A stretch of 64,000 bases of DNA from contig JAHEXZ010000022.1 in assembly GCA_023251835.1 (NCBI GenBank), positions 251 to 64,250 of the forward strand, in the 5' to 3' direction. The notes below the pieces were generated by a model. That model worked only from the letters and a program-made list of their open reading frames with translations. It searched no databases and was not told the DNA's origin. This document shows, piece after piece, positions 22,762 to 58,192 of the stretch; positions within the stretch are counted from its first letter, which is position 1, and each line of letters opens with the position of its first letter. Both the position numbers and the translations under genes were made by a program. The DNA comes from Bacteroidota bacterium (GTDB taxonomy: Bacteria > Bacteroidota > Bacteroidia > 2-12-FULL-35-15).

Positions 22762-22966
22762 ACCTAAAAATTACAAAAATCCCAATAACTATAGGGACGA
22801 ATATACTAATTAATGATTGTTTATTTACATTTTTAATTTTTTTCACTACCTTCGTAAAAGTGGGTGTTTTGTGCGGATTAGTGAAATAAAAAGAATAGAA
22901 CTGCTTGTTATTAAATAGCAGATTTCGGCAACAAAATAGTTGAATTTATTTTTAATAAGATTCAAA

Positions 22967-25900
22967 ATGCGAATAAGCCTACTATTTCCATCGAAATTAT
23001 TCTTTGGAGCTTTACTGCTCCTGCTTTTTACTCCAAACTCAATAAAGGCAACGCATGTACAGGGTGGAAATCTTACCTATAGATGTTTAGGTGGAAACCA
23101 ATACGAAATAACGTTAGCGCTTTACAGAGATTGTGCAGGCGCTAATGCACCTACATCAGTCTCGATCAAACGGAAGTCTGTATTATGTGGAATTAACACC
23201 ACCTTTACACTTAATAAAATTGCAGGAACAGGTATTGAGGTTTCACCTATTTGCCCCGGTTCAACTTCAAAATGTTCTAATGGCTCACTACCAGGCGTAC
23301 AGGAATACATTTACCGGGGAATTGTTACGCTGCCTTCCTGCTCAGACTGGATTCTATCATATTCCATAAGCGCAAGGAATGCTGCTATAACCACAATTCA
23401 AACCCCAAGTTCAATGTCGATGTACATTGAAGCAACATTAAATAATCTTAATTTCCCATGCAACAGTTCACCCACATTTACTAATCGTCCGGTACCATAT
23501 ATTTGCGTTGGCCAACTCTATTGTTTTAATAATGGTTCAAATGACATTGATGGGGATTCGCTCTCTTATACATTAATTACCCCACGTCATTCAGCAACAA
23601 CAAATGTTACATATATTGGAGGATATTCAGCAAACCAGCCATTAGCCTCTTCTCCTGCAGCGACATTTAATCCGGCTACAGGCGATATGTGCGTAACACC
23701 CACAATGCTGCAGGTAACAGTACTTGCCATGTTAGTAAAAGAATGGCGCAATGGAGTTTTAGTAGGTAGTGTCATGCGCGACATCCAAATCCAAACAATA
23801 ACTTGTTCAAATAATAATCCTTATTTAAACGGAATAAATAATACAGGTGTTTATACCATGAACACCTGTGCCGGCAGCCCATTAACGTTCAATATTCCCT
23901 CCTTTGATGCAGATATATCACAAAACGTTACTTTAAGCTGGAATTCGGGAATTTCAGGAGCAACCTTCAACGCAGGAACAGGCACAAGACCAACAGGTGT
24001 ATTTTCCTGGACACCAACATTAGCAGATGTTAGCAGTATACCCTATTGTTTTACCATCACTGTCAAAGACAATGCATGTCCTTTCATTGGCAGCCAAACC
24101 TATTCATTTTGTATAACAGTTGGCGGTTTTACAACAACCACATCAACGGTTAATGCTGTATGTACTGCTTCTAATGGTTCGGCATCAGTAAATGTTACAG
24201 GCGGTTTAGCACCTCTTGTCTATAATTGGCTTCCGGCAGGAAGTGCAGGCTCAATACCTACAGCCTCCGGTTTAGCTGCCGCATCATATACCTGCACAGT
24301 AACGGATGCGGTTGGGTGCTCTAAAACCCTTCCAATTACTGTAAGCTCAAGCCCAGGTGGTACTGCAACAATCGGTTCATTCTCAAACATTACCTGTAAT
24401 GGAGCAAATAATGGTACAGCAACAGTTACAATGAACGGCTCGGCAACACCACCATTTACTTATGTTTGGGTGCCATCTTCTGCAGGTACGGCAGTAACAG
24501 CTAACAATTTAGGCCCGGGAACTTATACTGTTAATGTTACTGATGCCAATGGCTGCATAGCTTCTGCATCACAAACTATCAGTGAACCAACTGTTTTAAC
24601 TGTCAGCCAAACATTTATAAACGTAGGTTGTTACGGAGGCATCACAGGAACAGCAACAGCAACAGCTTCCGGTGGAACAGGCCCTTATACTTATTTATGG
24701 ATGCCGGGAGCATTAAATACTGCTTCCATTGGTTCATTACCTATAGGATCTTATACTGTTACAGTTACTGATATAAATGGCTGCACAACATCAGGAACGG
24801 TTACTATTGTTCAACCTCCTGAATTGTCAATAACTGCATCAACAACCCCTGCAAATTGCGGGCAAACAAATGGTTCTGCAACAGTTACCGGTTCAGGAGG
24901 ATTTCCACCTTATACATGGTCTTGGTCAAACGGACAAACAAATGCAGCAGCAACGGGTTTAGCATCCGGAACATATACTGTAACTATTAGTGATCTAAAT
25001 CTTTGTACTGCTTCTGCACCTATTACCGTTGGAAACATTTCCGGTCCCACAGCTCAGATTACCTCATTCAGCAATGTAATATGCAATGGTGAAAATAATG
25101 GAAATGCCACAGTTGGTGTAACAGGTGGTTCTCCTCCATTTTCCTATTTATGGAGCAATGGCCAAACAACACCAACAGCAAATAATATGCCTGCAGGCAT
25201 ATACTCAGTATCAGCTACTGATGCAACAGGATGCATTGCATCAACAAGTATCGCAATAACACAACCTGCTACTTTGACTCTAAATGCTGTGAGTACTGAC
25301 CCTGTATGTTTTGGAAATACTAATGGAACTGCTACAGCAAGCGCAGTTGGCGGAACTACGCCTTATAGTTATGTTTGGACAATCAATGGTAATCCAACAA
25401 CTCCTGTTGTTACAGGTCTTGGTTCCGGTATTTATAGCGTTACAGTAGCCGATGCAAACGGATGTGTTAAAAATACTTCTGTTACTCTTACAAACCCACC
25501 AACATTAAGTACATCTATATCAAAAACAAACGCTTCATGTAACAACCTGTGTGATGGAACTGCAACAGCAACCATAAATAACGGAACCCCGCCATACATC
25601 TGTTTATGGAATAACCCTTCTGCTCAAACCGGGCCAACAGCAACCGGTTTATGTGCCGGTAGTTACACTGTTACTGTTTCAGATGCTCATGGTTGTCCTT
25701 CACAGGGAGTTATAACAATTTCAGAACCGCCTCCACTAATAGGTACAATTTCATCCGTTGGTAATTTAAATTGCTATGGTGTTTGCACTGGCTTTGCCCA
25801 AACCACAGCAACCGGTGGAACTGCGCCTTATTCCTATACCTGGCTGCCAGACTCATCTGCAAGCGCAACGGCATCAAATTTATGTGCCGGAACATACACC

Positions 25901-28852: not shown

Positions 28853-31800
28853 AAGTCGAGACTAAGCGATATATACCAAAGTGGTTTTAGAACAATTCCA
28901 TCCTGAACTCCCCAAGCCCTGTCTATACGTATAAAATAGCCAAACAAACGGCTTCTGACACCCCATCCATAGCCACCAACAATCGGATCATGCAGTGTGT
29001 TTAAAGTTATAATAAGTGGTGTTTGAGAAGAACCTATAACGGTTTTGTTGAGTGAATTTTTATCTGAATAAGGTGAACTTCCTGTCCAGGCAGTACCTAC
29101 ATCACCAAAAGCAACAATTTGAAAATTTTGAGCAAAGTCAGAACGTATAGGTCGCTGAGAAAGATATTTAAATACCGGAAAACGTAATTCACTGTTGATT
29201 GCAATAAAGCTGTTTCCATTACGTATATTCTGATAAAATCCCCGCATATTGGTTGCCAGTGTCTGGTAAGCATAATTCTGATCGGTAGCAATATTGGTTG
29301 TATTATCAAACCTGGCTCCAAACCAGTTATCTACGCCTCCCATATAATAGATTAGTTTTTTATTGCCAAACGATGTGCTTCCTGCAATGCGGTTTGCCCA
29401 AATAAAATCACGATGAATTTTTTGGTAATGGCGTGCATCAAATCCAACAACAAAAAAATCTGTTTTAGCTTTATCTAACTGGCGGTAGTACTCTCCGAAT
29501 ATCTTTGCACGTGAACCATTGAATATATTCAATCCTCTTTTAATTGTATTGTCAAATACATATTCTCCTTTAACAAAGGCCCAGTTTTCCTGTGTATTTG
29601 GCTTAGGAAGAGTATTATCATTTGTTGCTAAATATACAATCCTGTCGTTACGGTAGCTTATTGTTCCTCTTAAACTTGCCACTTCACTAAATGGATATTT
29701 TAAAATATATTTTGCATCATGTGTAAAAATTTTAACCAGCATGCTGTTATCTGTTACATTAAGTAATGTCTGGCGATGTACTACAATTTGTTTATCCAGA
29801 TTTTTCATCCGGTCTTCATAACTCAAAAAGTATTCATTATTATTAAAATCAAAAGAAAAACGCATACCACCTGTAATGCGATAATCTTCAAACAGATCAC
29901 TCATACCTACTTTAAAAAAAGCATTCAGACCCGGATTTAAGTAAATAGGGCTTCCTCCCCCGGTAAACTTTTGATATGAATTGTTTAGGAAAGAATTATC
30001 CAACTGTGAAACCACATAATCAACCGAATAATTTGTATTATAATTACGTTGTTTGGCCAATTGAAATTCAGCATCTTTTTTTACAGACAAAGAATCATAT
30101 AGGTGAGCTGATGTTTGTTTATTTTTTTCTATTTTTTTCTCCGGCTTTGGTTGTTCGTTTTCAAATGTATAATTATTAATATCAATTTCTGATGAATCTT
30201 TCTTCACCGGCTCTTGATATGTGTTTTTGATAGTTATTACATTTTCGATTGCAGGTGTTTCATTAAAAATTTTGTTCCTGGTTTCAGCTTCAAGTTGTTC
30301 TTTTTTATCAACGCGATTCCTATAATCGCGGAAAGAAGTATTTTTCAATTCAACGGCAGTGGTAGTTTTAGTGCTGGCCAATGGCACAACATACATCTTA
30401 TATTTTCCTTTTTCAAAAATTATCTCGCTCAGCTTTGTTGTTTTTATATTTACATCCTGCTCCAGGATACTACGCGAATAATTGGTAATTGGAAAGGTTG
30501 TAACAACAGTACGGTAGTGGGCGGCCGTATCAATATAAGCTATAACACTGTCGAATTTGGCAATATACCGGTTACGTATGCCATTCAAATCGCTTAGGTA
30601 AGAAATATGAGAACTATCATAGTCACCCGGATAGGTTTCATCAATACCGGGTGTATTGGTAACACGTATTAGTATAGGTGATTTGGTTATATTGTTAAAC
30701 ATAAATATATCTTTATGTGGCTGAGCATTTTCATATTTATGTTTGGGATTAAAAAAGAGTGTATCTGCCGGCCGGTTTGAAGCAAACACTATACCTTTTG
30801 AGCCATGCACAAAACGTGGAGTAAGATCATCATAAATATCCTTGGTTATCTGATCATAAGCACTGGAAGAGGCCGTAAACACATAAATATCGGTCTGACC
30901 TTTTTGTACTGCCGACATAACAAAGCGTTTACCATCATCGCTGTATGAATAATCCAAAATTTTCTCAAAGCCGGTAATATTGCGTTCAGCAAATTCTTTA
31001 GTTTCCATATCATACGTTTTCATCACAATATAGCCTTTACGCTCTATTATGAATGAAAACAACTTATTGCTTGGATGCCATGCCACTATGGGATATGAAT
31101 AATCATTGATCCGGTCTATCTTATGGTCTGCTTTATAAATACGTTTGGTTTTATTGTTTTGAACATCATACAACCAAAGCTTGTTCTGTCCCATTTCATT
31201 GGTAGTATATAAAACATAGTTACCATCCGGACTAACTTTCAACTGGCTGTATACCCTTGTGGATTTTGGTTTTAAAAGAACAGGAGCCTGTGAAGGTAAT
31301 GTTTTGGCCGGGTCTTTGTCCGCATATTTATTCTTATATGATTCCAGACACTCTTCCCATAAATTGCGGATAGAGATTCCTAATACAAACAGTGAAGAGT
31401 TATCAATATTACGGCTCACCTTAGTCATGTATAAAATGTTGGAAATCACAGCCTCTCCATAGTTATCTGCCACATGCTTCCACAAAGCATGACCAGCATA
31501 AACAGCATCAGCACCTTCCAAACGGTTGATATTTTTGTATTTTCCGCTTAAAATACCATCCTTAACACGATTGTCTATATCTGAATTCCAGTTATTCGCT
31601 ACATAAGATACCAGCCCTTTCTGATACCAGTCAGGTAAGTTTAAAAGAGTATTATTTTTAAGCATTTCACGCACATTACCACCATACATTATATGATTAA
31701 TAAGTACCTGTGCCACCCCTTCGCGAATCTGGGCATCCAGCTTATCATGGTCGCCTTCATAATACAAAATTACTTTTGTACCAACAATGGTTGTAATACC

Positions 31801-32178
31801 ACCGGTATTATATTGAGCGTCTGTAGAAAGACCTATATTACTTTGCTTAAAATCAGAATGTTTATTGAAAATAATAAACTGAAAACGCTCATCTACAGCA
31901 TAATCAAACAGCTTCTCAATAGCAGTTATCTGCTTTTTAGCCGCTTGGGAAACATAATCAGCCAGTTCCCTACCTTCCTCATAAAAATAAATATCGTAAC
32001 GGTCGTAGCTGTAATAGGTCCAAAAGAAATCCTCGTATTTTACCCTGTTTTTACCAAACTCCATTTGAGAGCCTGTATAAAACTGAGCATCAGAAATATA
32101 AGTATTACCTATAATGCCAAGCAAAATGATAAAGCTGGTTATAAGCTTTTTATAAAAATAAAAAAAAGAAGTCCCCAA
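28849..32178 (-). CDS. Omp85-like barrel protein with TolB/PD40 propeller and degenerate metallopeptidase-like N-domain
   Basis: Signal peptide; FGKNRVKY; propeller repeats (VSPDG, AWHP, YSDDG); C-terminal barrel with LRGFYQ-like MRGFYQNIRNG, NSELRFP, FGDVG and a terminal Phe. Confidence 0.65.
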   Translation of the reverse strand: MGTSFFYFYKKLITSFIILLGIIGNTYISDAQFYTGSQMEFGKNRVKYEDFFWTYYSYDRYDIYFYEEGRELADYVSQAAKKQITAIEKLFDYAVDERFQFIIFNKHSDFKQSNIGLSTDAQYNTGGITTIVGTKVILYYEGDHDKLDAQIREGVAQVLINHIMYGGNVREMLKNNTLLNLPDWYQKGLVSYVANNWNSDIDNRVKDGILSGKYKNINRLEGADAVYAGHALWKHVADNYGEAVISNILYMTKVSRNIDNSSLFVLGISIRNLWEECLESYKNKYADKDPAKTLPSQAPVLLKPKSTRVYSQLKVSPDGNYVLYTTNEMGQNKLWLYDVQNNKTKRIYKADHKIDRINDYSYPIVAWHPSNKLFSFIIERKGYIVMKTYDMETKEFAERNITGFEKILDYSYSDDGKRFVMSAVQKGQTDIYVFTASSSAYDQITKDIYDDLTPRFVHGSKGIVFASNRPADTLFFNPKHKYENAQPHKDIFMFNNITKSPILIRVTNTPGIDETYPGDYDSSHISYLSDLNGIRNRYIAKFDSVIAYIDTAAHYRTVVTTFPITNYSRSILEQDVNIKTTKLSEIIFEKGKYKMYVVPLASTKTTTAVELKNTSFRDYRNRVDKKEQLEAETRNKIFNETPAIENVITIKNTYQEPVKKDSSEIDINNYTFENEQPKPEKKIEKNKQTSAHLYDSLSVKKDAEFQLAKQRNYNTNYSVDYVVSQLDNSFLNNSYQKFTGGGSPIYLNPGLNAFFKVGMSDLFEDYRITGGMRFSFDFNNNEYFLSYEDRMKNLDKQIVVHRQTLLNVTDNSMLVKIFTHDAKYILKYPFSEVASLRGTISYRNDRIVYLATNDNTLPKPNTQENWAFVKGEYVFDNTIKRGLNIFNGSRAKIFGEYYRQLDKAKTDFFVVGFDARHYQKIHRDFIWANRIAGSTSFGNKKLIYYMGGVDNWFGARFDNTTNIATDQNYAYQTLATNMRGFYQNIRNGNSFIAINSELRFPVFKYLSQRPIRSDFAQNFQIVAFGDVGTAWTGSSPYSDKNSLNKTVIGSSQTPLIITLNTLHDPIVGGYGWGVRSRLFGYFIRIDRAWGVQDGIVLKPLWYISLSLDF

Positions 32179-49221: not shown

Positions 49222-52200
49222 ATGCATATCCGATTTACGCTTTATTTTATTTTATTTATTCCTCTTTTTTCACTGTCTCAATCAAGGATTACTGGCGTTT
49301 CCCCAACAAATTCAAACCAAATTAAATGGAATCCACCCGCTTCTATAAAAATTTCAGATACTGAGACACAGCGTTTTCTATCATTTGAGGGGGCGCAATA
49401 TGCTTTTGAGGATGGATTTTTACCCAGATACAGCCAAAAAATAGCTTTGAGCGGTAATTTAAAGAACTTTTCTGCACTACTTAAAAATTCTGTTTTTGAG
49501 CCATTATCGGATCAGGAAACAGCTTATATAAAAGACCCCTCAAAAGTTTCAGAACAAATACACATAAGTAGTAATGTGCTGACTGCTAAAAAAAAGTTAT
49601 ATGGGGTTGTTTCTTTTATACCCATCCGTAAAAATAGTGCCACAGGGAAGATTGAAAAATTAGTATCTTTTGAGCTTTCCATTGTGCCAGCCAATGAATT
49701 AAAATCGGGAGCACGTTCTGTTCATACCTATGCATCCAACTCTGTTCTGCAAAGCGGTACTTGGTATAAAATTGCATTATCCACAAATGGTATTTACAAA
49801 TTATCTTACTCTTTTTTGCAAGGTATGGGAATTGATGTAACATCTGTTAATCCCCAAAATATAAGGGTTTATGGTAATGGCGGAAAGGCGCTTGCTGAAT
49901 TAAACTCTGTTCCCCGCCCGGACGACCTTATTGAAAATGCTATTTATGTTGAAGGAGAGAATGACGGGGTATTTAATGAAAACGATTATGTATTATTTTA
50001 TGGGCAAGGAACCACAACCTGGACATACGATAGTACGGCTTCCTGCAATAAATATAAACATTCATTAAACCTTTATTCTGACTCAGCCTATTATTTTATT
50101 ACTACAGATTTAGGTGCCGGTAAACGCATCCAGACACAGGTATCATCTGCTTTACCAGTTACACATACCGTTAATAGTTTTGATGATTATGCTTATCATG
50201 AAAATGAAAACGTCAATTTTATAAAATCGGGCAGACAATGGTTTGGTGAGTATTTTGAAAATGTAAATTCTTATAATTTTTCTTTTTCCTTTCCAAATAT
50301 AGATGCAACATCTGATGCATCAGTAAATGTATGCCTTGCATCGCGTTATTTGAGCGGTGGCAATGCTATTTATTCGGTTAGCAGCCAGTCGGGCAGCACC
50401 TCCATTTCTATTCCGGCAGTGTCAGGAAGTTCATACGACCATTATGCCAGAATTGTAAGCAATTGTTATTCTTTTACTCCTTCCAACCCGGCAATTACCG
50501 TAAATGTTACCAAACAAACAGCGGATGCAGTAGCATGGCTTGATTATATTGACGTGAATGTAAGACGTTTACTTACCATGAGTGGTGCACAACTAATTTT
50601 CAGGGATGCTCAATCAATTGGTACAGGTAATATTGCCCAGTATGAAGTTACGAGCAGCTTACCTATACAAATATGGGATATCACAGATATTAACAATGTA
50701 AAACTGCAATCAGTAAACACACCAGGCTCTTCGCTGTACCAGTTTATTTTGCCTGCCGATTCTTTAAAAGAGTTTATAGCTTTTACGGGGGCATCCTATA
50801 ATGTACCGGCATTGAGAGGAATTGTTGCTAACCAGGATTTACATGCTTTAACGGCCAAAGATTTAATTATTGTTACCCATCCTGATTTTTACCAGGGGGC
50901 ATTACAGCTTGCAGCATATCATGAAAGCAGGGATAGCTTATCTACGGTAGTTGTAACACCCCAGCAGATTTATAATGAATTTTCATCAGGCGCTCAGAGT
51001 GTTTGTGCTATAAGGGATTTTGTAAAAATGTTTTATGACAGAGCTTCAGATAGCTCAGAATTGCCCCAATATTTATTGTTATTTGGTGATGGTTCATATG
51101 ATAACAAGAAGCGTTTTACGAGCAATACCAATTTTATTCCTACTTACCAATCAGATAATTCAACTATTCCCACCTCATCTTATGTGTCTGATGATTTTTA
51201 TGGTTTGCTGGATGATGATGAAGGAGTATGGAATTTTGACGCAGTAGATATAGGAATTGGCCGTTTTCCTGTTAAAACAAAATCAGAAGCTCAATCTGCC
51301 ATTAATAAAATAATGAATTATACCAAAACCGGTTTTTCAACATCAACAACTTCAGGCAATACATGTACCAACCAAGCATCCGGTTCACCTTTTGGGAGCT
51401 GGCGCAATACTGTTTGTTTTATAGGCGATGATGAAGATGGCGGTATTCATGCTTCACAGGCAGATCAACAGGCAACTTTGGTTGATACCACCTATCAGAA
51501 TTACAATATTGATAAAATATACTTAGATGCATACCAACAGGAAGCCACTCCTGGGGGTAACCGTTATCCGGCAGTAGTTGAAGCAATCAATAGAAGGATA
51601 GAAAAAGGAGCTTTAATTATAAACTATACAGGCCATGGAGGAGAAGTTGGTTTAGCTCATGAACGAATCATTGAAGTATCCCAAATTAACAAGTGGAATA
51701 ATGCTACTAATTTGTTTTTATTTTTTACAGCTACCTGCGAGTTTAGCAGGTTTGATGATCCTGAGCGTACTTCGGCAGGAGAGTATGTTTTTTTAAACCC
51801 TAATGGTGGTGCTATTGCTTTATATAGCACAGTAAGATTGGTATTTGCGAGCCCTAACTTTTATCTAAACAGAGATTTTTATACAGCCGTTTTCGAACCT
51901 TTGAACGGAAAGATGCCACGTTTGGGCGATTTGTATGAATATATAAAAAATCAACCGGGAGGAAACTCTGTTAACAGTCGTAATTTTACATTACTTGGAG
52001 ACCCTGCGTTGACTTTAGCTTATCCAAAATATACTATTACAACAGACACTGTTAATTCAAATCCGGTAACAGCTATAAGTTCAGATACATTAAAAGCACT
52101 CTCTATTGTAACAGTAAGTGGGCATATCAGCGATGCTAATAGCAACATCTTAAGTTCATATAATGGGACATTATACCCCACTGTGTATGATAAACCACAA

Positions 52201-53118
52201 AACATTACTACCCTGTCAAATGATGGTACATCTGCAAGTCCACCATTTACTTTTAAATTACAAAAAAATATTTTGTACAAAGGTAAAGTAAGCATCACGA
52301 ATGGATATTATAAATTTTCATTTATAGTTCCTAAAGACATAGCCTACCAGTTTGGCACCGGGCGGATAAGTTATTACGCTGAAAACGGAAATGAGGATGC
52401 ACAAGGGAATCATGAAAAAATAATTATTGGTGGTTCTAATGATACTGCTGCATCGGATGCTGTTGGACCTGAAGTAAGTTTGTATATGAATGATACCAAA
52501 TTTGTATTTGGTGGATTAACGGATGAAAATCCGGACATTTATTCGATATTGAAAGACGACAATGGAATAAATACTGTTGGAAATGGAATAGGGCACGATA
52601 TTACAGCTGTAATGGATGGTAATACAGAAAAATCTATAGTATTAAATGACTATTATGAATCGGATTTAAACAGCTATAAAAGTGGAAGCATACGGTATTC
52701 GCTGGAAGAATTAAGTGAAGGTAAACATACATTAAAATTAAAGGTATGGGACATCTATAATAATTCCACAGAAACCTATACTGAATTTGTTGTTGCAAAA
52801 TCAGCAAAGCTGGCATTAACTCATGTTTTAAATTATCCAAACCCATTTACTACCCGTACTCAGTTTTTCTTTGAACACAACCAAATATGTAGTTTACTGG
52901 AAGTACAGGTACAGATTTTTACTGTATCAGGGAAACTGGTAAAAAATATTGACCAGTTTGTTTCAACACAAGGGTTTCGTTCAGAACCGATAGAATGGAA
53001 CGGTCGGGATGATTTTGGTGATAAAATAGGAAAAGGAGTTTATGTATATCGTGTTAAAGTAAAAACAGCAGATGGTAATACTGCTGAGAAATATGAAAAG
53101 CTGGTAATTTTAAATTAA
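49222..53118 (+). CDS. porU: T9SS sortase PorU (C25 peptidase)
   Basis: NYTGHGGE and TATCEFSRFD catalytic His/Cys; LLGDP; CTD NYPNPFTT. Confidence 0.97.
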   Translation: MHIRFTLYFILFIPLFSLSQSRITGVSPTNSNQIKWNPPASIKISDTETQRFLSFEGAQYAFEDGFLPRYSQKIALSGNLKNFSALLKNSVFEPLSDQETAYIKDPSKVSEQIHISSNVLTAKKKLYGVVSFIPIRKNSATGKIEKLVSFELSIVPANELKSGARSVHTYASNSVLQSGTWYKIALSTNGIYKLSYSFLQGMGIDVTSVNPQNIRVYGNGGKALAELNSVPRPDDLIENAIYVEGENDGVFNENDYVLFYGQGTTTWTYDSTASCNKYKHSLNLYSDSAYYFITTDLGAGKRIQTQVSSALPVTHTVNSFDDYAYHENENVNFIKSGRQWFGEYFENVNSYNFSFSFPNIDATSDASVNVCLASRYLSGGNAIYSVSSQSGSTSISIPAVSGSSYDHYARIVSNCYSFTPSNPAITVNVTKQTADAVAWLDYIDVNVRRLLTMSGAQLIFRDAQSIGTGNIAQYEVTSSLPIQIWDITDINNVKLQSVNTPGSSLYQFILPADSLKEFIAFTGASYNVPALRGIVANQDLHALTAKDLIIVTHPDFYQGALQLAAYHESRDSLSTVVVTPQQIYNEFSSGAQSVCAIRDFVKMFYDRASDSSELPQYLLLFGDGSYDNKKRFTSNTNFIPTYQSDNSTIPTSSYVSDDFYGLLDDDEGVWNFDAVDIGIGRFPVKTKSEAQSAINKIMNYTKTGFSTSTTSGNTCTNQASGSPFGSWRNTVCFIGDDEDGGIHASQADQQATLVDTTYQNYNIDKIYLDAYQQEATPGGNRYPAVVEAINRRIEKGALIINYTGHGGEVGLAHERIIEVSQINKWNNATNLFLFFTATCEFSRFDDPERTSAGEYVFLNPNGGAIALYSTVRLVFASPNFYLNRDFYTAVFEPLNGKMPRLGDLYEYIKNQPGGNSVNSRNFTLLGDPALTLAYPKYTITTDTVNSNPVTAISSDTLKALSIVTVSGHISDANSNILSSYNGTLYPTVYDKPQNITTLSNDGTSASPPFTFKLQKNILYKGKVSITNGYYKFSFIVPKDIAYQFGTGRISYYAENGNEDAQGNHEKIIIGGSNDTAASDAVGPEVSLYMNDTKFVFGGLTDENPDIYSILKDDNGINTVGNGIGHDITAVMDGNTEKSIVLNDYYESDLNSYKSGSIRYSLEELSEGKHTLKLKVWDIYNNSTETYTEFVVAKSAKLALTHVLNYPNPFTTRTQFFFEHNQICSLLEVQVQIFTVSGKLVKNIDQFVSTQGFRSEPIEWNGRDDFGDKIGKGVYVYRVKVKTADGNTAEKYEKLVILN

Positions 53119-53219
53119 TTACTACCTTAGCATTCCCAAAAAAAATCTCATTGGGTATACTATTTTTTTGTTTAGAGCGTTAGTGAAAAACTTTTATCAG
53201 TAAAAAATACTTTTTCAGG

Positions 53220-54509
53220 ATGGGTTATATACAGATTAATAAAACACACCCGGTTATCTTACCCCTGCTATTATTGGGTATTCATAGCTTATTTTCTCAA
53301 GCGCAACAATCTATTAATTACAATCAAATTTCAGGGCAACAGTTAGATACACGCTTAAATACAATAACTACAGCCGTTCCTTTTTTATTAATCTCACCCG
53401 ATTCAAGGGCTGGCGGCATGGGAGATGCAGGATGTGCTTCATCAGTTGATGTAAATTCCATTCATTGGAATCCTTCCAAGCTGGGCTTTGCTGACAAAAA
53501 GATGGGGTTTGGAGTATCCTATACTCCCTGGCTGAGAGCACTTGTACCCGATATTAACCTTGCCTACTTATCCGGCTATTATAGAACTAAAAAGAGTGGA
53601 ACAATAGGTGGCTCATTACGTTATTTTTCATTAGGTGACATTACATTTACCGATATTAATGGCAACACTATAGGTCAATTCAGGCCAAATGAGTTTGCTA
53701 TTGACATAGCTTACGCTACCAAGCTGGGCGATAAATTTTCAGCAGGTGGCGCGGCACGTTATATCAATTCTAATTTAACTGGTGGTACTTTTGTAGACGG
53801 GTCGGCAACGCGTCCCGGCCGCTCTTTTGCAGTAGACGTTTCTGCATTATACAGAGAAGATAAATTAAAACTGGGCGATAAAAAAGCTATTTGGGCATTA
53901 GGTTTAAATATTTCAAACATTGGTGCTAAAATATCATACTCAGACAGGGGTGGAAAAAACAATTCTGATTTTATTCCTATTAATATGCGTTTGGGGGGCT
54001 CATTGGCTATAAATATTGATGATTATAACAGTGTACTGTTTATAGCTGATGCTAACAAATTATTGGTTCCTACACCTCCTATCTATAAACAAAAAATAAA
54101 TCCGAATACTGGTAAACCTGATGGTATTGAATATGATGCTAATGGCGACCCGGTTATTCTTGCTGGAAAAAATCCAAGGAGGGGTGTTGCAGAAGGTATT
54201 TTTGGTTCTTTTAATGATGCCCCCGGTGGTGGCAAAGAGGAACTTAGAGAAATTAATTATTCATTGGGATTGGAATATTGGTATAATAAATTATTTGCCG
54301 TAAGACTTGGTTATTTTTATGAGCATCCAACTAAAGGGAACCGTAAGTATTTTACACTAGGAGCCGGTGTAAAGTACAATGTATTTGGATTAGATTTTGC
54401 CTACCTTATTCCTACCCAGCAAAGAAATCCGTTAGAAAACACATTAAGATTTACACTGACGTTTGATTTTGATGCGTTTAAGGCACAAAATGAAGCAAGC
54501 GCGAACTAA
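53220..54509 (+). CDS. porV: T9SS outer-membrane shuttle PorV
   Basis: ITTAVPFLLISPDSRAGGMGD, SYTPWL, KGNRKYFTLG, NPLENTLRF. Confidence 0.97.
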   Translation: MGYIQINKTHPVILPLLLLGIHSLFSQAQQSINYNQISGQQLDTRLNTITTAVPFLLISPDSRAGGMGDAGCASSVDVNSIHWNPSKLGFADKKMGFGVSYTPWLRALVPDINLAYLSGYYRTKKSGTIGGSLRYFSLGDITFTDINGNTIGQFRPNEFAIDIAYATKLGDKFSAGGAARYINSNLTGGTFVDGSATRPGRSFAVDVSALYREDKLKLGDKKAIWALGLNISNIGAKISYSDRGGKNNSDFIPINMRLGGSLAINIDDYNSVLFIADANKLLVPTPPIYKQKINPNTGKPDGIEYDANGDPVILAGKNPRRGVAEGIFGSFNDAPGGGKEELREINYSLGLEYWYNKLFAVRLGYFYEHPTKGNRKYFTLGAGVKYNVFGLDFAYLIPTQQRNPLENTLRFTLTFDFDAFKAQNEASAN

Positions 54510-54992
54510 ATGACAATACGTATCGGATTTGGGTTTGACGTACATCAACTGCAAGCAGGAAAAGCATTGTGGTTAGGCGGAGTCCAAATCCAGAATGCTT
54601 CTAAAGGCGCTGTAGGACATTCTGATGCGGATGTTTTAATTCATGCTATTTGTGATGCATTGCTTGGTGCAGCCGGTATGCGTGATATTGGATTTCATTT
54701 CCCTGACACTTCTTCAGAATTTAAAGGTATTGATAGTAAACTACTCCTTGCCAAAGTGATTCAGCTTTTAAGAACAAAGAATTATAGTGTTGGAAATATT
54801 GATAGTACATTGGTTTTAGAAAAGCCAAAAATAAATCTCCATATTGAGCAAATAAAGCAGGTGCTGGCACCTATTATGGGTGTAGATACAGACGACATTG
54901 GAATTAAAGCTACTACCAATGAAAAGATGGGGTATGTTGGCCGTGAAGATGGGGTTTGTGCGTATGCGGTGGCGTTGATAAGTCAAAAGTGA
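54510..54992 (+). CDS. ispF: 2-C-methyl-D-erythritol 2,4-cyclodiphosphate synthase
   Basis: RIGFGFDVHQL, GHSDADVLIHAICDA, KATTNE. Confidence 0.99.
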   Translation: MTIRIGFGFDVHQLQAGKALWLGGVQIQNASKGAVGHSDADVLIHAICDALLGAAGMRDIGFHFPDTSSEFKGIDSKLLLAKVIQLLRTKNYSVGNIDSTLVLEKPKINLHIEQIKQVLAPIMGVDTDDIGIKATTNEKMGYVGREDGVCAYAVALISQK

Positions 54993-55125: not shown

Positions 55126-56523
55126 CTATCCGGTAATATCCGGTAATTCTTTATTGGTTCTAACATATTTTGTAGAAGGACCTTCGCCAACTTTACTCAC
55201 CCATTCTCCTTCCAATAATTTTGAAATATCATTTCTTGCGGTTTTTTCCGAAATATTTCCTTTATAGAACTTTTCATATTCTTCTCTTGCAAATTGGTCG
55301 GCTGTTTTAATACGTTTTAAAAAGGAGAACATTCTCTTATTCATTTCTATTTGCTTCGCTGTTCCATAAAGCGTAAGTGTAGTGTATCCACTTTGTGTTG
55401 TCCATTCAGGCATTCGCAAGCCAAATTCGGTAAACTTGTTTTTAATCAAACTCAAACCTCTTCCTAATTTTTCTATTTTACCTCTCAGGTAAAACATATG
55501 GGCAATAGTTGGATTTCTTAAAACAGAATGGTGCTCTTTTATTTTGTTTTTCCCTAAAATAATATCAGGGGGAATTTCACCAGAATTAATTATTTCAATT
55601 TTATCAGAATAAATATTTATGGTAATATCCCCCGATATATCAGCATAATCTCTATGAACCATTGCGTTTAGAATAGCTTCATCTAATGCCTCCATCGGAT
55701 ATTTTTCATGCGTTGTCCTGTCCCAATTATCGTGCTTAAATACACTAACCATTGGCAGATTGCGATTAAAATATTCCTGAATACGATTAAAAGACGTGAA
55801 TAAATTATCTTCTATCAAAACGGTATCATCAAAACGGCTTCCAGTTTTTCCGTGTGGCATAACAGTAATTCTGATTCGGCATTGCGAAATAAATTTAACA
55901 GGGTCTTTACCAAATAAAACGATGCTTCCGTTCTTTATCAAATTCAAATCAAACAATTGGAAGTAGTTGAGAAATTCTGGAATATCATTTGGTAAACTTT
56001 TGCCTCTGCCTATCTTGTTGGATTCGTTAATAGTAGTTTCAATTTCTTTTTGAACTAAATCTTCCAAAACAGCATCAATAGTCGTTTGTTTTTCCCAAGT
56101 GGAAGCATATTCATTGGAGCTACGCATAAGCAAACTGATTTCATCTCCATTGGCTTCTTTGGTAATACTGTCCTGCCTCACGTAATACTTGCGGTCAAAA
56201 GAGTATGGTTGCCGTGAACCTTTAATCACGTTCATTAGAATTACATGTTTGCTCTTGTAAGTTTCTATCCGAACATCAATTAAAGGTTGAGGAAAAATCT
56301 GTTCAACAATCAACCTCTTTAGTTCTATAACTTTTTCGTCAATGCCATTTGTTATACCTATCAATTCTTTTCCATTATATCCAACCAATATCCAACCTCC
56401 TTCAGTATTCAGAAAGCCACAAGCAGCCTGCATTAGCTGTTGGGGTTTATATTCACTTACAAATTCGATTTGAAGATTTTCTTTTTGCTGAATCAACTCA
56501 GCTATGAATGAACTGTTAATCAT
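55126..56523 (-). CDS. Schlafen/AlbA_2 domain + RecG-C-like (HATPase_c_4) domain + winged HTH
   Basis: E-x4-EF and FLNTEGG.ILVG; YYVR; EAILNAMVHRDY, IEIINSG, RNPTIA, IEKLGRG; C-terminal SEKTARNDISKL...VGEGPSTKY. Confidence 0.88.
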   Translation of the reverse strand: MINSSFIAELIQQKENLQIEFVSEYKPQQLMQAACGFLNTEGGWILVGYNGKELIGITNGIDEKVIELKRLIVEQIFPQPLIDVRIETYKSKHVILMNVIKGSRQPYSFDRKYYVRQDSITKEANGDEISLLMRSSNEYASTWEKQTTIDAVLEDLVQKEIETTINESNKIGRGKSLPNDIPEFLNYFQLFDLNLIKNGSIVLFGKDPVKFISQCRIRITVMPHGKTGSRFDDTVLIEDNLFTSFNRIQEYFNRNLPMVSVFKHDNWDRTTHEKYPMEALDEAILNAMVHRDYADISGDITINIYSDKIEIINSGEIPPDIILGKNKIKEHHSVLRNPTIAHMFYLRGKIEKLGRGLSLIKNKFTEFGLRMPEWTTQSGYTTLTLYGTAKQIEMNKRMFSFLKRIKTADQFAREEYEKFYKGNISEKTARNDISKLLEGEWVSKVGEGPSTKYVRTNKELPDITG

Positions 56524-57134
56524 GGTAATAATTTGATTTTATCAATTAAATTCTTAATCCTTACTGGATATTTAAACTGACTATCTAAATGCAATCGTAT
56601 ATCTTCTAAACTCTGATACTCCTGAACCCAATTTCCTTTTCTATCCAATGGTGGAATTTTATTTTTTATCATCTCCTCATACAATTGAACACAGCGAATA
56701 TCCATGATAGTGTTATTATTAAAATTGATATTGCCGGAATCGATCGGAATATCAATACCGCCATTGTTAATGGCAGCCTTTCTGATAAGAGAACGAGTAA
56801 ACGTAACACGGAAATCAGCCATAATAAATCTTGGGATTTTGCGGACAATAGCCGTTTCAAATTCTTGATGTGTGATGGACTTACCGCTTTTATCTAAAAC
56901 ACTCGAACCGTAATCCGGTCTGATAAACCCAATGAACAGATCGCATTCTTCAACTCCATTGGTGCAATTTTGCAAATTTGATTCACTACTATCAACCATT
57001 ATAGTTCCTTTATGAGAATTTAAAACATCATAGCCAAAGCCATCTAATAATTCATAGATTTTATTTAACTCAGTTTGAAAGTTATAAACTGTTGATGCTA
57101 CAAATATTTTAATATGATTACGTGGTGCTGCCAT
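56520..57134 (-). CDS. DUF4062 domain protein (TIR/nucleoside-deoxyribosyltransferase-like fold)
   Basis: KIFVAST, C...VEECDLFIGFI...YGS, SITHQEFETA; ATGA-type 4-bp overlap with the downstream gene. Confidence 0.85.
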   Translation of the reverse strand: MAAPRNHIKIFVASTVYNFQTELNKIYELLDGFGYDVLNSHKGTIMVDSSESNLQNCTNGVEECDLFIGFIRPDYGSSVLDKSGKSITHQEFETAIVRKIPRFIMADFRVTFTRSLIRKAAINNGGIDIPIDSGNINFNNNTIMDIRCVQLYEEMIKNKIPPLDRKGNWVQEYQSLEDIRLHLDSQFKYPVRIKNLIDKIKLLP

Positions 57135-57157: not shown

Positions 57158-58192
57158 TTATTCCTTTTGAATTATGAAATCCAAAACCCTAATTTTAACA
57201 TAAGCTTCCTCTGCATAAAGAAATCCTAAGTCTTCTCCATTATTTGCCATATTCATCTCAAATGATCGCGCCAAAAAGGGTTGAATAACTTCATTTCCTA
57301 TTACCAGTGTTTTTGGTTGATAGCTCACAATTGTGCCAGTCTTGTCATAAATAAGTAGCAAAATTTTTATTGAAAAAACAGCGGTGGGTAGATTGTTTTT
57401 TATCGAGAAAAAAACTTTTGCTGGCAAACAATGCTTGCTCGTTCCTCTCGTCCATTCAAAACAAGGGTCAATATTTCGTATAGTAACGCCTGTTTTAATA
57501 AGGGGAGATGCGGAAGTCTGAGAGACAGTTTTAACTTTCGATTTTACAGATGATAAAGAGGTTACTGTTCCAATTTTTAATTTTAAGCTAAGTAAATATT
57601 TTACTGGTATTGCAAAATTTATATTTTGTCCATCTGTGAAACTTGCAAATGCAATACCTATAGCCAGTCCAAGTGAATTTAAAACAGGGCCTCCACTACT
57701 ACCAGGTGAAATAGGAGCAGTGATTTGCAAAACTTTGTTAGTTTGTATATCACGTATTCCGCTAATATTACCTTCAGAAAATGTACCATTAAATCCTTTA
57801 GGATTGCCAACAGCAAATATTTTTTCGCCTATCTCCGGAAGATTTTCACTTCCTAAATTTAATTTGTCTCCCGATAGCTCGGAAATTTTTAAGATTACTA
57901 AATCGTTTGCTTTATCTATTGCAACATATCCATTTACCTTATATTTTTTATCTTCTCCGTTTTTTAGAATATACGCTGAATTACATCCTTCAATAACATG
58001 TACATTCGTTGCAACCAATTCATCATCTATCATAAAGCCAGAGCCATATCCCAATGGTTGTATAAATTGGTCTAAAGCAACAATCGACACGGTTGATTTT
58101 ATTCCGGTTTTGGCAATTTCGGTGGATGATTGTCCAAATATTTTTAATGATGTCAGTAAAATGGCCAATAAAATAAATTTATTTCCTCTCAT
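57158..58192 (-). CDS. Exported S1C/trypsin-like serine protease with C-terminal beta domain
   Basis: Signal peptide; GSGF, TNVHV (His), NDLVILKI (Asp), ISPGSSGGP (Ser). Confidence 0.92.
   Translation of the reverse strand: MRGNKFILLAILLTSLKIFGQSSTEIAKTGIKSTVSIVALDQFIQPLGYGSGFMIDDELVATNVHVIEGCNSAYILKNGEDKKYKVNGYVAIDKANDLVILKISELSGDKLNLGSENLPEIGEKIFAVGNPKGFNGTFSEGNISGIRDIQTNKVLQITAPISPGSSGGPVLNSLGLAIGIAFASFTDGQNINFAIPVKYLLSLKLKIGTVTSLSSVKSKVKTVSQTSASPLIKTGVTIRNIDPCFEWTRGTSKHCLPAKVFFSIKNNLPTAVFSIKILLLIYDKTGTIVSYQPKTLVIGNEVIQPFLARSFEMNMANNGEDLGFLYAEEAYVKIRVLDFIIQKE

What the first reader, a model, noticed from the sequence alone, without database searches (positions are those of the whole stretch)
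55126..57134. Candidate undescribed anti-phage system: DUF4062 (TIR/NDT-like) translationally coupled to a Schlafen-ATPase-like-wHTH protein
Seen: a two-gene unit with a 4-bp start/stop overlap, antisense to ispF, interrupting housekeeping context. DUF4062 keeps the S-x-T-x-x-E91 glutamate. Established: TIR and nucleoside-deoxyribosyltransferase-like folds use such a Glu to cleave NAD+ or nucleotides in Thoeris, CBASS and retron-type systems, and Schlafen domains are tRNA/RNA nucleases linked to antiviral defence. Inference: a sensor-effector or signal-effector pair. I do not recall this exact standalone pairing as a named system.
Basis: partly seen in the sequence, partly recalled or inferred. 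Interest (0 to 1): 0.8.

Follow-up and report, generated by a model that had tools for sequence, protein, structure and literature searches.

The report
Two-gene NADase–Schlafen-ATPase phage-defence cassette
Two overlapping genes, a small TIR-like NAD+-cleaving enzyme (DUF4062) and a Schlafen–ATPase–DNA-binding-type protein, form a mobile unit that always travels together across bacterial phyla and is most likely a two-part anti-phage system that I did not find described as a pair.

Summary
Gene A (56520-57134, minus strand, 204 aa) is a DUF4062 protein. Gene B (55126-56523, minus strand, 465 aa) has Schlafen/AlbA_2, GHKL ATPase and winged-helix domains. They share a 4-bp ATGA overlap.

The pairing is not chance:
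- No intact gene A lacks gene B in 38 species-representative loci, and flanking genes differ everywhere.
- The pair persists at 25-35% identity in Alpha- and Gammaproteobacteria and on plasmids.
- One metagenomic protein (P0423, 640 aa) is a natural A-B fusion.
- About half the loci sit beside defence genes, and eleven lie next to or inside type I restriction operons.

Three 2026 papers show DUF4062 is a TIR-like NADase in single-gene defence systems (Swarozyc, Evangelion, NIR) that carry a fused sensor domain. Gene A lacks room for one.

In gene B the ATPase residues are invariant, but the Schlafen nuclease motif is complete in only 22% of relatives and incomplete here.

Best reading: a split DUF4062 system, with gene A as NADase effector and gene B as an ATP-gated sensor or regulator acting in trans.

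Verdict: new variant of a known kind, untested experimentally.

The parts
56520..57134 (-). Gene A: 204-aa DUF4062 (TIR/NDT-like) protein consisting of the catalytic core only. Proposed NADase effector.
   Evidence: ORF. Pfam PF13271 E 1.8e-19. The AlphaFold model (pLDDT 78, pTM 0.78) is one alpha/beta domain spanning residues 9-187 plus a terminal helix. Foldseek matches the TIR of TIR-STING, nucleoside 2-deoxyribosyltransferase, DNPH1, BcmB and the RPS4 TIR. F11, E91, W169 and Q171 are invariant in 118 relatives.
56862..56864 (-). Codon GAA for E91, the predicted catalytic glutamate of gene A (counterpart of KpSwz E97 and Eva01 E87).
   Evidence: Sequence read. E in 118/118 relatives. The E97A and E87A mutants abolish defence in the published systems.
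56520..56523 (-). ATGA overlap between the gene A stop and the gene B start (translational coupling).
   Evidence: The same 4-bp overlap occurs in 18 of 31 intact junctions in related loci; the rest are spaced from -8 to +17 nt.
55126..56523 (-). Gene B: 465-aa 'Schlatpase'-wHTH protein (Schlafen/AlbA_2 + GHKL ATPase + winged helix). Proposed ATP-gated sensor or regulator.
   Evidence: ORF. Pfam. AlphaFold model pLDDT 81. Foldseek gives a full-length match to 3LMM (DIP2311, E 7e-20), then the SLFN11-14 N-domains, the SAMD9 tRNase domain, histidine-kinase catalytic domains and PDK4.
56152..56478 (-). Schlafen/AlbA_2 domain of gene B (residues 16-124). The Schlafen box C35-x-F-L-N39..GGW44 is intact, but the nuclease motif is incomplete (E15, E20, V22 in place of K, N50/G51 in place of the third acidic residue).
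   Evidence: The full motif is present in 26 of 118 relatives.
55369..55680 (-). GHKL (Bergerat-fold) ATPase of gene B: N-box E282-x3-N286 with H290-R-D-Y293, then HATPase_c_4 residues 299-385 with N313-S-G315 and G354-R-G356.
   Evidence: All of these residues are invariant in 118/118 relatives and in all distant partners. They correspond to the E314/N318 ATP-Mg site of RzAgo.
55159..55338 (-). C-terminal winged helix-turn-helix of gene B (about residues 396-455).
   Evidence: Weak Pfam DIP2311-like_C hit. Model topology H396-404, H413-419, H426-438, E442-445, E452-455. Distant partners carry Fic-like_C or DeoR-type wHTH at the same place.

Best explanation
This is a two-component version of the DUF4062 (TIR-like NADase) abortive-infection defence. 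Gene A is the bare catalytic core and lacks the fused C-terminal sensor (AUX) domain that the single-gene systems need. Gene B supplies sensing and control in trans. Its GHKL ATPase drives ATP-dependent oligomerisation, and its Schlafen and winged-helix domains act mainly as binding or sensing surfaces rather than as an obligatory nuclease. On phage infection, gene B releases or assembles gene A into its active oligomer, NAD+ is hydrolysed, and the infected cell stops supporting phage growth.

Shown here: the domain identities, the residue conservation pattern, the obligate linkage, the fusion protein, and the mobility and defence-island context.

Inferred: the physical complex, the trigger, NADase activity in this protein, and protection against phage.
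For: 1. Obligate pairing. Among 38 species-representative loci, 34 have gene B directly after gene A. The other four are remnants or contig ends. None of the window's flanking genes recur.
2. Reciprocal look-ups starting from gene B homologues find DUF4062 upstream.
3. The gene junctions are overlapping or tightly spaced.
4. The pairing survives deep divergence:
   - IMG/VR contig: A 46%, B 38% identity.
   - Hymenobacter plasmid: A 34.5%, B 30%.
   - Dongiaceae: pair next to Wadjet.
   - Pseudoalteromonas and Sessilibacter: pair inside hsdM-hsdM-hsdS-hsdR operons.
   - Acinetobacter Rep3 plasmids.
5. Rosetta stone. P0423 (640 aa) is DUF4062 fused to Schlafen-GHKL-wHTH in the same order as the genes.
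6. Length rule. Partnered DUF4062 proteins are 174-244 aa. The two unpartnered plasmid DUF4062 proteins examined are 299 and 419 aa.
7. Gene A keeps the three motifs shown to be essential in Eva01 (F11, E87, W162 there; F11, E91, W169 here) but has only 35 residues after the Trp.
8. Selection pattern. The gene A Glu and the gene B ATPase residues are 100% invariant, while the Schlafen nuclease motif is relaxed.
9. Published biochemistry:
   - DUF4062 hydrolyses NAD+ to ADPR and Nam, and needs its AUX domain and a phage trigger.
   - ATP binding by the same Schlafen-GHKL module drives tetramerisation in SLFN-pAgo.
10. Defence context. At least 18 of 38 loci have RM, Gabija-like, pAgo, Hachiman-like, CARF or PDC neighbours within 6 kb.
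Against: - There are no experimental data for this pair, and no complex prediction could be run.
- E15 and E20 are still acidic in 81-85% of relatives, and 22% keep the full nuclease motif. A tRNase output cannot be excluded in part of the family.
- About half of the loci, including the window, lie in non-defence surroundings.
- Eva01 is described as having only a 'short' AUX, so a 204-aa DUF4062 protein might retain some autonomous sensing.
- HisKinase-type pSlfns tested alone in E. coli gave no protection. This fits a need for a partner, but it also fits the absence of any defence role.
- The NIR preprint could not be read, and it may already cover a two-gene form.
Confidence: 0.55

Rival explanations
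1. Dual-effector system. Both proteins are toxic outputs: gene A depletes NAD+ and gene B cleaves tRNA through its Schlafen domain, as in RzAgo and RorSlfn5. The ATPase and wHTH act as the shared sensor.
For: Schlafen domains are proven tRNases in bacterial defence. E15 and E20 are acidic in 81-85% of relatives. 26 of 118 relatives, and the Dongiaceae partner, keep the canonical ExxxxEFK plus the third acidic residue.
Against: The window copy lacks the Lys and the third acidic residue. The motif is incomplete in 78% of relatives. The Acinetobacter partners have lost the N-terminal strand altogether while keeping the pairing. By contrast, the ATPase residues and the gene A Glu are invariant.
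Confidence: 0.15
2. Plasmid or ICE addiction (toxin-antitoxin-like) module. Gene B is a wHTH repressor or antitoxin that restrains a toxic NADase, stabilising mobile elements rather than defending against phage.
For: The pair occurs on small Rep3 plasmids, on a conjugative-type plasmid and in an ICE-like PRTRC region. Gene B has a wHTH. Another Schlatpase sits behind a RelE/HigA pair.
Against: Many copies are chromosomal and lie inside RM operons or defence islands. A 465-aa ATPase is unusual for an antitoxin. The fusion protein P0423 is hard to reconcile with differential-stability TA logic. Published DUF4062 systems are phage-triggered.
Confidence: 0.1
3. Restriction guard of the PrrC type. 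The pair monitors a type I R-M complex and fires when a phage anti-restriction factor disables it.
For: Eleven of 38 Bacteroidota-type loci have type I hsd genes within 6 kb, and in about ten the order is hsdR-hsdS-[A-B]-hsdM. Two gammaproteobacterial loci also place the pair between hsd genes. Kuzmenko et al. saw Schlatpase modules fused to or embedded in type I R-M operons.
Against: The window copy and many others have no R-M gene nearby, so R-M cannot be an obligatory partner.
Confidence: 0.08
4. Thoeris-like signalling. Gene A makes a nucleotide signal from NAD+, and gene B senses it and then acts as effector.
For: TIR-family enzymes can make signalling nucleotides. The gene order and coupling resemble sensor-effector operons.
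Against: DUF4062 was shown to give plain ADPR and nicotinamide. Gene B has no SLOG, SAVED, CARF or Macro-type ligand domain. The natural fusion argues for direct contact. The proposed effector nuclease site is degenerate.
Confidence: 0.05
5. Two independent single-gene defence systems (an Evangelion-like DUF4062 and a pSlfn) that merely sit side by side.
For: Each family has been described as single-gene. Defence genes do cluster.
Against: No intact gene A lacks gene B across phyla. The start and stop codons overlap. The pairwise divergences of the two genes correlate (r = 0.70). A fusion protein exists.
Confidence: 0.04

Closest known systems
Swarozyc (KpSwz), Evangelion (Eva01) and NIR: single-gene DUF4062 TIR-like NADase defence systems (2026 preprints)
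   Same: Same catalytic domain (PF13271). It has the conserved Phe, the S-x-T-x-x-Glu site and the W/Q/E motif. The expected output is the same: NAD+ hydrolysis and abortive infection. Distribution is likewise patchy, mobile and defence-island linked.
   Different: Those proteins carry a cis C-terminal AUX sensor that is required for defence; in KpSwz it has an HTH/winged-helix core that binds the phage portal. Gene A is 204 aa with no room for such a domain, and it is always followed by, or in P0423 fused to, a Schlafen-GHKL-wHTH protein.
Prokaryotic Schlafen proteins, class HisKinase-HTH (Perez Taboada et al. 2026), also called the 'Schlatpase'+HTH supradomain (Kuzmenko et al. 2026)
   Same: Identical architecture: AlbA_2/Schlafen, PF13749 GHKL ATPase and a C-terminal HTH. 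The ATP-Mg residues are conserved. It is often found near R-M genes.
   Different: The Ex4(E/D)xK nuclease motif, reported as highly conserved in pSlfns, is incomplete here and in most of this lineage. This lineage has a fixed DUF4062 partner. Other Schlatpase-HTH proteins at 23-30% identity have none.
SLFN-pAgo (RzAgo)
   Same: It shares the Schlafen-GHKL module, which explains the PADLOC hits of gene B to pAgo and Aga models. In RzAgo, ATP-driven tetramerisation gates an effector.
   Different: Gene B has no PAZ, MID or PIWI core. In RzAgo the Schlafen domain is the effector, whereas here a separate NADase is the likely effector. In locus L001 a full SLFN-pAgo sits in the same R-M operon as the pair.
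Thoeris (ThsB TIR + ThsA)
   Same: A two-gene logic that combines a TIR-fold protein with a second protein, and an NAD+-centred abortive infection.
   Different: No SIR2, SLOG or Macro domain is present. There are no PADLOC Ths hits for either gene. There is no evidence for a signalling nucleotide.
PrrC/RloC anticodon nucleases embedded in type I R-M operons
   Same: An ATPase-containing abortive module inserted between hsd genes in many relatives.
   Different: The folds differ: GHKL and Schlafen rather than an ABC-type ATPase with an ACNase domain. There is an extra NADase gene, and the window copy is not R-M linked.
DIP2311 of Corynebacterium diphtheriae (PDB 3LMM)
   Same: The best full-length structural match to gene B (Foldseek E 7e-20).
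   Different: It is a structural-genomics entry with no known function, shares about 15% identity, and no DUF4062 partner was examined.

Membership tests
DUF4062 NADase defence (Swarozyc / Evangelion / NIR) | DUF4062 (PF13271) TIR-like domain | tested here: met
   Pfam E 1.8e-19, above the cutoff. The fold matches TIR and NDT-like enzymes.
DUF4062 NADase defence (Swarozyc / Evangelion / NIR) | Catalytic Glu (KpSwz E97, Eva01 E87) together with the conserved Phe and W/Q/E motif | tested here: met
   F11, E91, W169 and Q171 are invariant in 118 relatives.
DUF4062 NADase defence (Swarozyc / Evangelion / NIR) | C-terminal auxiliary (AUX) sensor region fused in the same polypeptide and required for defence | tested here: not met
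   The protein is 204 aa and the model is one domain plus a terminal helix. Only 35 residues follow W169, whereas the Eva01 AUX extends at least 50 residues beyond W162. The unpartnered plasmid homologues are 299 and 419 aa.
DUF4062 NADase defence (Swarozyc / Evangelion / NIR) | Single-gene autonomy | tested here: not met
   Gene A is always followed by gene B and is fused to it in P0423. Functional autonomy itself cannot be tested with these tools.
DUF4062 NADase defence (Swarozyc / Evangelion / NIR) | Phage-triggered NAD+ hydrolysis and protection | not testable with these tools
   This needs enzymology and plaque assays.
Prokaryotic Schlafen (pSlfn HisKinase-HTH / Schlatpase) | AlbA_2/Schlafen domain with the Schlafen box | tested here: met
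   Pfam E 6e-14. C35, F37, N39 and GGW44 are invariant. The profile hits SLFN11, 12, 13, 14 and 5 structures.
Prokaryotic Schlafen (pSlfn HisKinase-HTH / Schlatpase) | GHKL ATPase (PF13749) with the Glu/Asn ATP-Mg site | tested here: met
   Pfam E 1e-16. E282 and N286 are invariant. The fold matches His-kinase catalytic domains and PDK4.
Prokaryotic Schlafen (pSlfn HisKinase-HTH / Schlatpase) | Catalytic Ex4(E/D)xK motif plus the third acidic residue | tested here: not met
   The window copy has E15, E20, V22 and N50/G51. The motif is complete in only 26 of 118 relatives and deleted in the Acinetobacter partners.
Prokaryotic Schlafen (pSlfn HisKinase-HTH / Schlatpase) | C-terminal HTH | tested here: met
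   Sub-threshold Pfam hit. Winged-helix topology in the model. There are clear Fic-like_C or DeoR wHTH hits in distant partners.
Thoeris | ThsA-type effector (SIR2 or TM with SLOG, or a Macro domain) next to a TIR protein | tested here: not met
   No such domains appear in Pfam or PADLOC scans of either gene.
SLFN-pAgo | Argonaute PAZ-MID-PIWI core fused to the Schlafen-GHKL module | tested here: not met
   Gene B is 465 aa. The PADLOC pAgo model aligns only over its positions 236-445, and no PIWI domain is found.
PrrC-type R-M-embedded abortive module | Location inside a type I hsd operon | tested here: not met
   The window locus has no hsd genes. The feature is met in 11 of 38 related loci and in L058 and L062.

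The most novel reading that the evidence does not exclude
The Schlafen-GHKL-HTH proteins are the commonest prokaryotic Schlafen class, with tens of thousands of members and no phenotype when tested alone. They may in general be ATP-gated sensor or licensing modules that work through a neighbouring effector. This cassette would then be the first defined case: a 'split Swarozyc' in which a catalytically degenerate Schlafen domain senses infection and switches on a trans-encoded TIR-like NADase. That would place the bacterial relatives of two human immune domains, TEP1's NIR domain and Schlafen, in one ancestral complex.
Probability: 0.3. Interest if true: 0.75.

Novelty: new variant of a known kind. 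Interest (0 to 1): 0.6.

Why it matters
Both halves belong to families that were shown only in 2025-2026 to act in phage defence and that have human counterparts (TEP1 in the vault particle, and SLFN11-14).

So far DUF4062 defence has been described as single-gene, with a fused sensor. The abundant Schlafen-ATPase-HTH class has no assigned phenotype. A strictly conserved, sometimes fused, pairing of the two bears on both gaps:
- It suggests how an AUX-less NADase could be controlled.
- It suggests what the orphan Schlafen-ATPase class is for.
- It may explain why single-gene tests of some homologues failed. One possible case, if the tested gene was of the partnered type, is the Acinetobacter DUF4062 gene tested alone.

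It also gives annotation pipelines a simple rule: a DUF4062 gene of about 250 aa or less, followed within 20 nt by a PF04326/PF13749 gene.

Tried and rejected
- PADLOC and NCBIfam scans of gene A found nothing. Gene B hit only pAgo/Aga models, through the shared Schlafen-GHKL region.
- A PDB sequence search with the gene A profile gave no meaningful hit.
- tblastn of gene A against 50,697 phage genomes found no match. Only one IMG/VR contig carries a pair.
- I looked for insertion scars, RNA genes and signals around the cassette. There were only chance-level repeats, no Rfam family, promoter-like sites at the shuffled expectation, and no terminator after gene B. The scan does not model Bacteroidota promoters.
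- I looked for an empty site or strain variation through the exact ispF protein. All three contigs have the same arrangement.
- I looked for RNA-seq evidence. Only groundwater and sediment metagenome DNA runs hold the sequence.
- I tested whether the upstream secreted trypsin-like protease (23-bp gap) belongs to the unit. It is absent from every related locus, so I rejected it.
- I tested whether the 154-aa DprA-like ORF downstream of the pair in some Bacteroidales is related to the small ORF upstream in the Acinetobacter plasmids. It is not.
- The NIR preprint (10.64898/2026.09.04.749371) could not be opened. I could obtain only term counts.
- The first neighbour-annotation batch exceeded the residue limit, so I split it.
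Full report
OBSERVATION

The window holds two minus-strand ORFs exactly as reported. Gene A is 56520-57134 (204 aa) and gene B is 55126-56523 (465 aa). The gene A stop and the gene B start share ATGA at 56520-56523.

Pfam gives DUF4062 for gene A (E 1.8e-19, residues 9-95). For gene B it gives SLFN_AlbA_2 (residues 16-124, E 6e-14), HATPase_c_4 (residues 299-385, E 1e-16) and a sub-threshold winged-helix hit.

ispF (54510-54992, +) is convergent with the pair and does not overlap it. A secreted trypsin-like protease ends 23 bp upstream of gene A. The wider context is porU/porV/ispF on one side and DUF2490/DUF4956/VTC on the other, in a Bacteroidota contig from a groundwater metagenome. GC content does not set the pair apart from its surroundings.

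IS THE PAIRING REAL?

A pattern scan of one genome per GTDB species with a gene A alignment returned 38 loci. Most are Bacteroidota and two are Chlorobiaceae MAGs. tblastn of the window's proteins into those loci gave the following.
- Gene B lies directly downstream of gene A in 34 loci. Gene A identity is 58-84% and gene B identity is 51-77%.
- L037 is a deletion remnant that joins gene A residues 5-34 to gene B residues 378-461.
- L032, L036 and L038 are gene A fragments at contig ends, or remnants.
- No locus has an intact gene A without gene B.
- None of the window's flanking genes (protease, ispF, porV, DUF2490) occurs in any locus, so the two genes move as a cassette.

Of 31 intact junctions, 18 have the same ATGA overlap and the rest are spaced from -8 to +17 nt. 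Starting instead from gene B homologues (Sphingobacterium and a JGI contig) also finds DUF4062 upstream with a 4-bp overlap. Pairwise identities of the two genes correlate across 31 loci (r = 0.70). Some copies are decaying: there are premature stops in gene A in L030 and L034, and frameshifts in gene B in L013. Such turnover is usual for defence genes.

DEPTH OF THE ASSOCIATION

More distant gene A relatives keep the same partner.
- An IMG/VR contig: A 46%, B 38%, with an 8-bp overlap.
- A Hymenobacter plasmid next to traK/M/N: A 34.5%, B 30%.
- A Dongiaceae (Alphaproteobacteria) contig, beside Wadjet jetABC.
- Pseudoalteromonas and Sessilibacter, where the pair sits inside hsdM-[A-B]-hsdM-hsdS-hsdR. 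hhalign of the partner to the gene B profile gives E 3e-44.
- Small Acinetobacter Rep3 plasmids. There the partner is annotated 'Fic family protein' but aligns full-length to gene B (hhalign E 7e-28).

The two DUF4062 proteins on plasmids that lack such a partner are longer: 419 aa in Agrobacterium, inside a PIN/AbiH island, and 299 aa in Clostridium. All partnered proteins are 174-244 aa.

An exhaustive profile search of 1.84 billion representative proteins found 1,745 clusters with E of 1e-3 or better. The best 150 are almost all short. One of them, P0423 (640 aa), is a natural fusion of DUF4062 (residues 12-96 by Pfam) with Schlafen (197-308) and GHKL (484-569), in the same order as the genes. 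hhalign to the gene B profile gives E 6e-53. This is classical Rosetta-stone evidence that the two products act together.

Other Schlafen-GHKL-HTH proteins at 23-30% identity have no DUF4062 neighbour. I saw this in a Parabacteroides capsule locus, in a Deinococcus hsdS-DUF262-RelE/HigA context, and in Chlorohelix. The DUF4062-linked proteins are therefore one lineage within a larger module family.

GENOMIC CONTEXT

I clustered 232 neighbouring ORFs and annotated representatives. In about ten loci the order is hsdR-hsdS-[A-B]-hsdM. In four loci a MmeI-like type IIG enzyme with a Gabija-like OLD-ATPase and UvrD pair lies upstream.

RM models dominate the aggregated PADLOC and Pfam counts. A tblastn probe finds RM or Gabija-like genes in 15 of 38 loci, with type I hsd genes in 11 of them. 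Scanning the large neighbours adds four more contexts:
- a full SLFN-pAgo in the same R-M operon (L001);
- a SIR2-APAZ-pAgo fusion together with PDC-S68 (L033);
- a HamB-like helicase (L011);
- a CARF protein (L035).

So at least 18 of 38 loci have a defence-type neighbour within 6 kb. Other copies lie in mobile elements: MobC and relaxase with MmeI, and a PRTRC/ICE-like region. Still others, like the window, lie in housekeeping surroundings.

WHAT THE TWO PROTEINS ARE

Gene A. The model (pLDDT 78) is a single alpha/beta domain spanning residues 9-187 plus a terminal helix. Foldseek matches the TIR of TIR-STING, nucleoside 2-deoxyribosyltransferases, DNPH1, BcmB and a plant TIR.

Three 2026 preprints establish DUF4062 as a TIR-like NADase that acts in single-gene abortive-infection systems.
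- Swarozyc: KpSwz needs E97 and is activated by the phage portal through an AUX domain with an HTH/winged-helix core.
- Evangelion: in Eva01, F11, E87, W162 and the AUX region are all essential.
- NIR.

Gene A has the counterparts F11, E91 and W169/Q171, all invariant in 118 relatives. Only 35 residues follow the Trp, which leaves no room for a separate AUX domain. That last step is an inference from the alignment and the model.

Gene B. The model (pLDDT 81) matches the uncharacterised DIP2311 structure 3LMM over its full length (E 7e-20). Parts of it match the SLFN11-14 N-domains, the SAMD9 tRNase domain, histidine-kinase catalytic domains and PDK4. The profile also hits Schlafen structures by sequence.

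This is the 'Schlatpase'+HTH architecture of Kuzmenko et al. [quoted passage not shown] It is also the 'HisKinase-HTH' class of Perez Taboada et al., which makes up 19% of prokaryotic Schlafens. HisKinase-type members tested alone in E. coli gave no protection.

CONSERVATION PATTERN IN GENE B (118 relatives)

- The ATPase residues E282, N286, H290-R-D-Y293, D295, G298, N313-S-G315 and G354-R-G356 are invariant or nearly so (one D292N in 118).
- The Schlafen box (C35, N39, GGW44) is invariant.
- The nuclease motif is relaxed. Position 15 is acidic in 81% and position 20 in 85%. Lys or Arg at position 22 occurs in 33%. A third acidic residue occurs at position 50 in 16% and at position 51 in 25%.
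- Only 26 of 118 relatives have all four features.
- The window copy reads E15, E20, V22 and N50/G51.

Among the distant partners, only the Dongiaceae protein has the canonical ExxxxEFK. The Acinetobacter partners lack the N-terminal strand entirely. By region, GHKL is the most conserved (mean column identity 0.82), while the Schlafen domain and the C-terminus are the most variable (0.62-0.64). That is the pattern expected if those ends face the phage.

MECHANISM

The most economical reading is a split DUF4062 system. Gene A is the NADase effector core. Gene B provides in trans what AUX provides in cis, namely infection sensing and control of NADase assembly, using an ATP-dependent oligomeric switch. 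I put this at 0.55.

Rival readings and my confidence in each:
- Dual effector, NADase plus tRNase (0.15). It is kept alive by the 22% of relatives with an intact nuclease site.
- A TA-like addiction module (0.10).
- A PrrC-like guard of type I R-M (0.08). This cannot be obligatory, because many copies lack R-M.
- Thoeris-like signalling (0.05).
- Coincidental adjacency of two single-gene systems (0.04).

None of the biochemical steps has been shown for this pair.

NOVELTY

PADLOC v2 (2023) has no model for gene A. It hits gene B only through the module it shares with pAgo-associated proteins. NCBIfam has nothing for either gene.

In the searchable library, no paper contains DUF4062 together with Schlafen, or together with AlbA, HATPase, GHKL, RecG or PF13749. 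The supplements of the Swarozyc paper that are held as text do not mention them either. [quoted passage not shown]

The NIR preprint could not be opened. Term counts show 'two-gene' once, 'ATPase' twice and 'winged' once, but no Schlafen, GHKL, HTH or histidine kinase. A prior description of the pair therefore cannot be fully excluded.

I rate it a new variant of a known kind. The interest is moderate to high for specialists, for three reasons:
- It links two families that are conserved in human immunity.
- It proposes a role for the most abundant but phenotype-less Schlafen class.
- It is immediately testable.

Noticed in passing
L001:710-4030 (Saprospiraceae MAG CAYRYD010000044.1): A full-length SLFN-pAgo (PADLOC pAgo model PDLC02394 covered 1-1121, E = 0) sits in the same type I R-M operon as the pair: hsdR, SLFN-pAgo, hsdS, DUF4062, Schlatpase-HTH, hsdM. 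One operon therefore holds two different Schlafen-GHKL modules.
   Followed up: partly
L033:2766-5954 and L033:8254-11886: Here the pair lies between a 1062-aa SIR2-APAZ-pAgo fusion (PDLC02384, E = 0) and a 1210-aa PDC-S68 candidate defence protein. This is a dense defence island.
   Followed up: partly
L010:5412-5876, L015:8568-9053, L020:8245-8715, L022:8280-8744, L023:8108-8572, L035:2016-2480: A conserved ORF of about 154 aa with a weak DprA/DNA_processg_A (Rossmann, SLOG-like) hit (E 2.6e-5, below the cutoff) follows gene B in six mostly Bacteroidales-type loci. It may be a third component in that sub-lineage. It is absent from the window.
   Followed up: partly
L048:1984-2484 and L061:1703-2170 (Acinetobacter Rep3 plasmids): A 155-166 aa ORF with no Pfam hit overlaps the start of the DUF4062 gene by 8 bp. 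This suggests a three-gene form on these plasmids. It is unrelated to the DprA-like ORF.
   Followed up: partly
L013, L030, L034, L037, L038: These cassette copies are decaying: frameshifted gene B (L013), premature stops in gene A (L030, L034), an internal deletion fusing the start of gene A to the end of gene B (L037), and a 32-residue gene A remnant (L038).
   Followed up: partly
P0381 (373 aa) and P0307 (368 aa): There are other architectures of close gene A relatives: DUF4062 fused to a canonical TIR_2 domain (P0381), and a tandem duplication of DUF4062 (P0307).
   Followed up: partly
window 57158-58192 (-): This is a secreted (signal-peptide) trypsin-like/HtrA-type protease ending 23 bp before gene A. 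It hits PADLOC RT-Protease_XI models only through the protease domain. It is not found near the pair elsewhere, so any promoter for the pair must lie inside it, or the three genes are co-transcribed.
   Followed up: partly
L055 (Parabacteroides distasonis plasmid NZ_OY725760.1): Two Schlafen-GHKL-type genes annotated 'RNA-binding domain-containing protein' are interspersed among glycosyltransferase genes of a polysaccharide locus. This is a non-defence-looking context for the same module.
   Followed up: no
window 50-7177 (+), 22940-28852 (+), 28849-32178 (-): Very large ORFs of 2375, 1970 and 1109 aa lie elsewhere in the window. I did not examine them.
   Followed up: no
window 49222-54509 (+): The type IX secretion genes porU (Peptidase_C25, 1298 aa) and porV (429 aa) lie directly upstream of ispF and run into it without a gap. 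The porV stop is at 54509 and the ispF start is at 54510.
   Followed up: no
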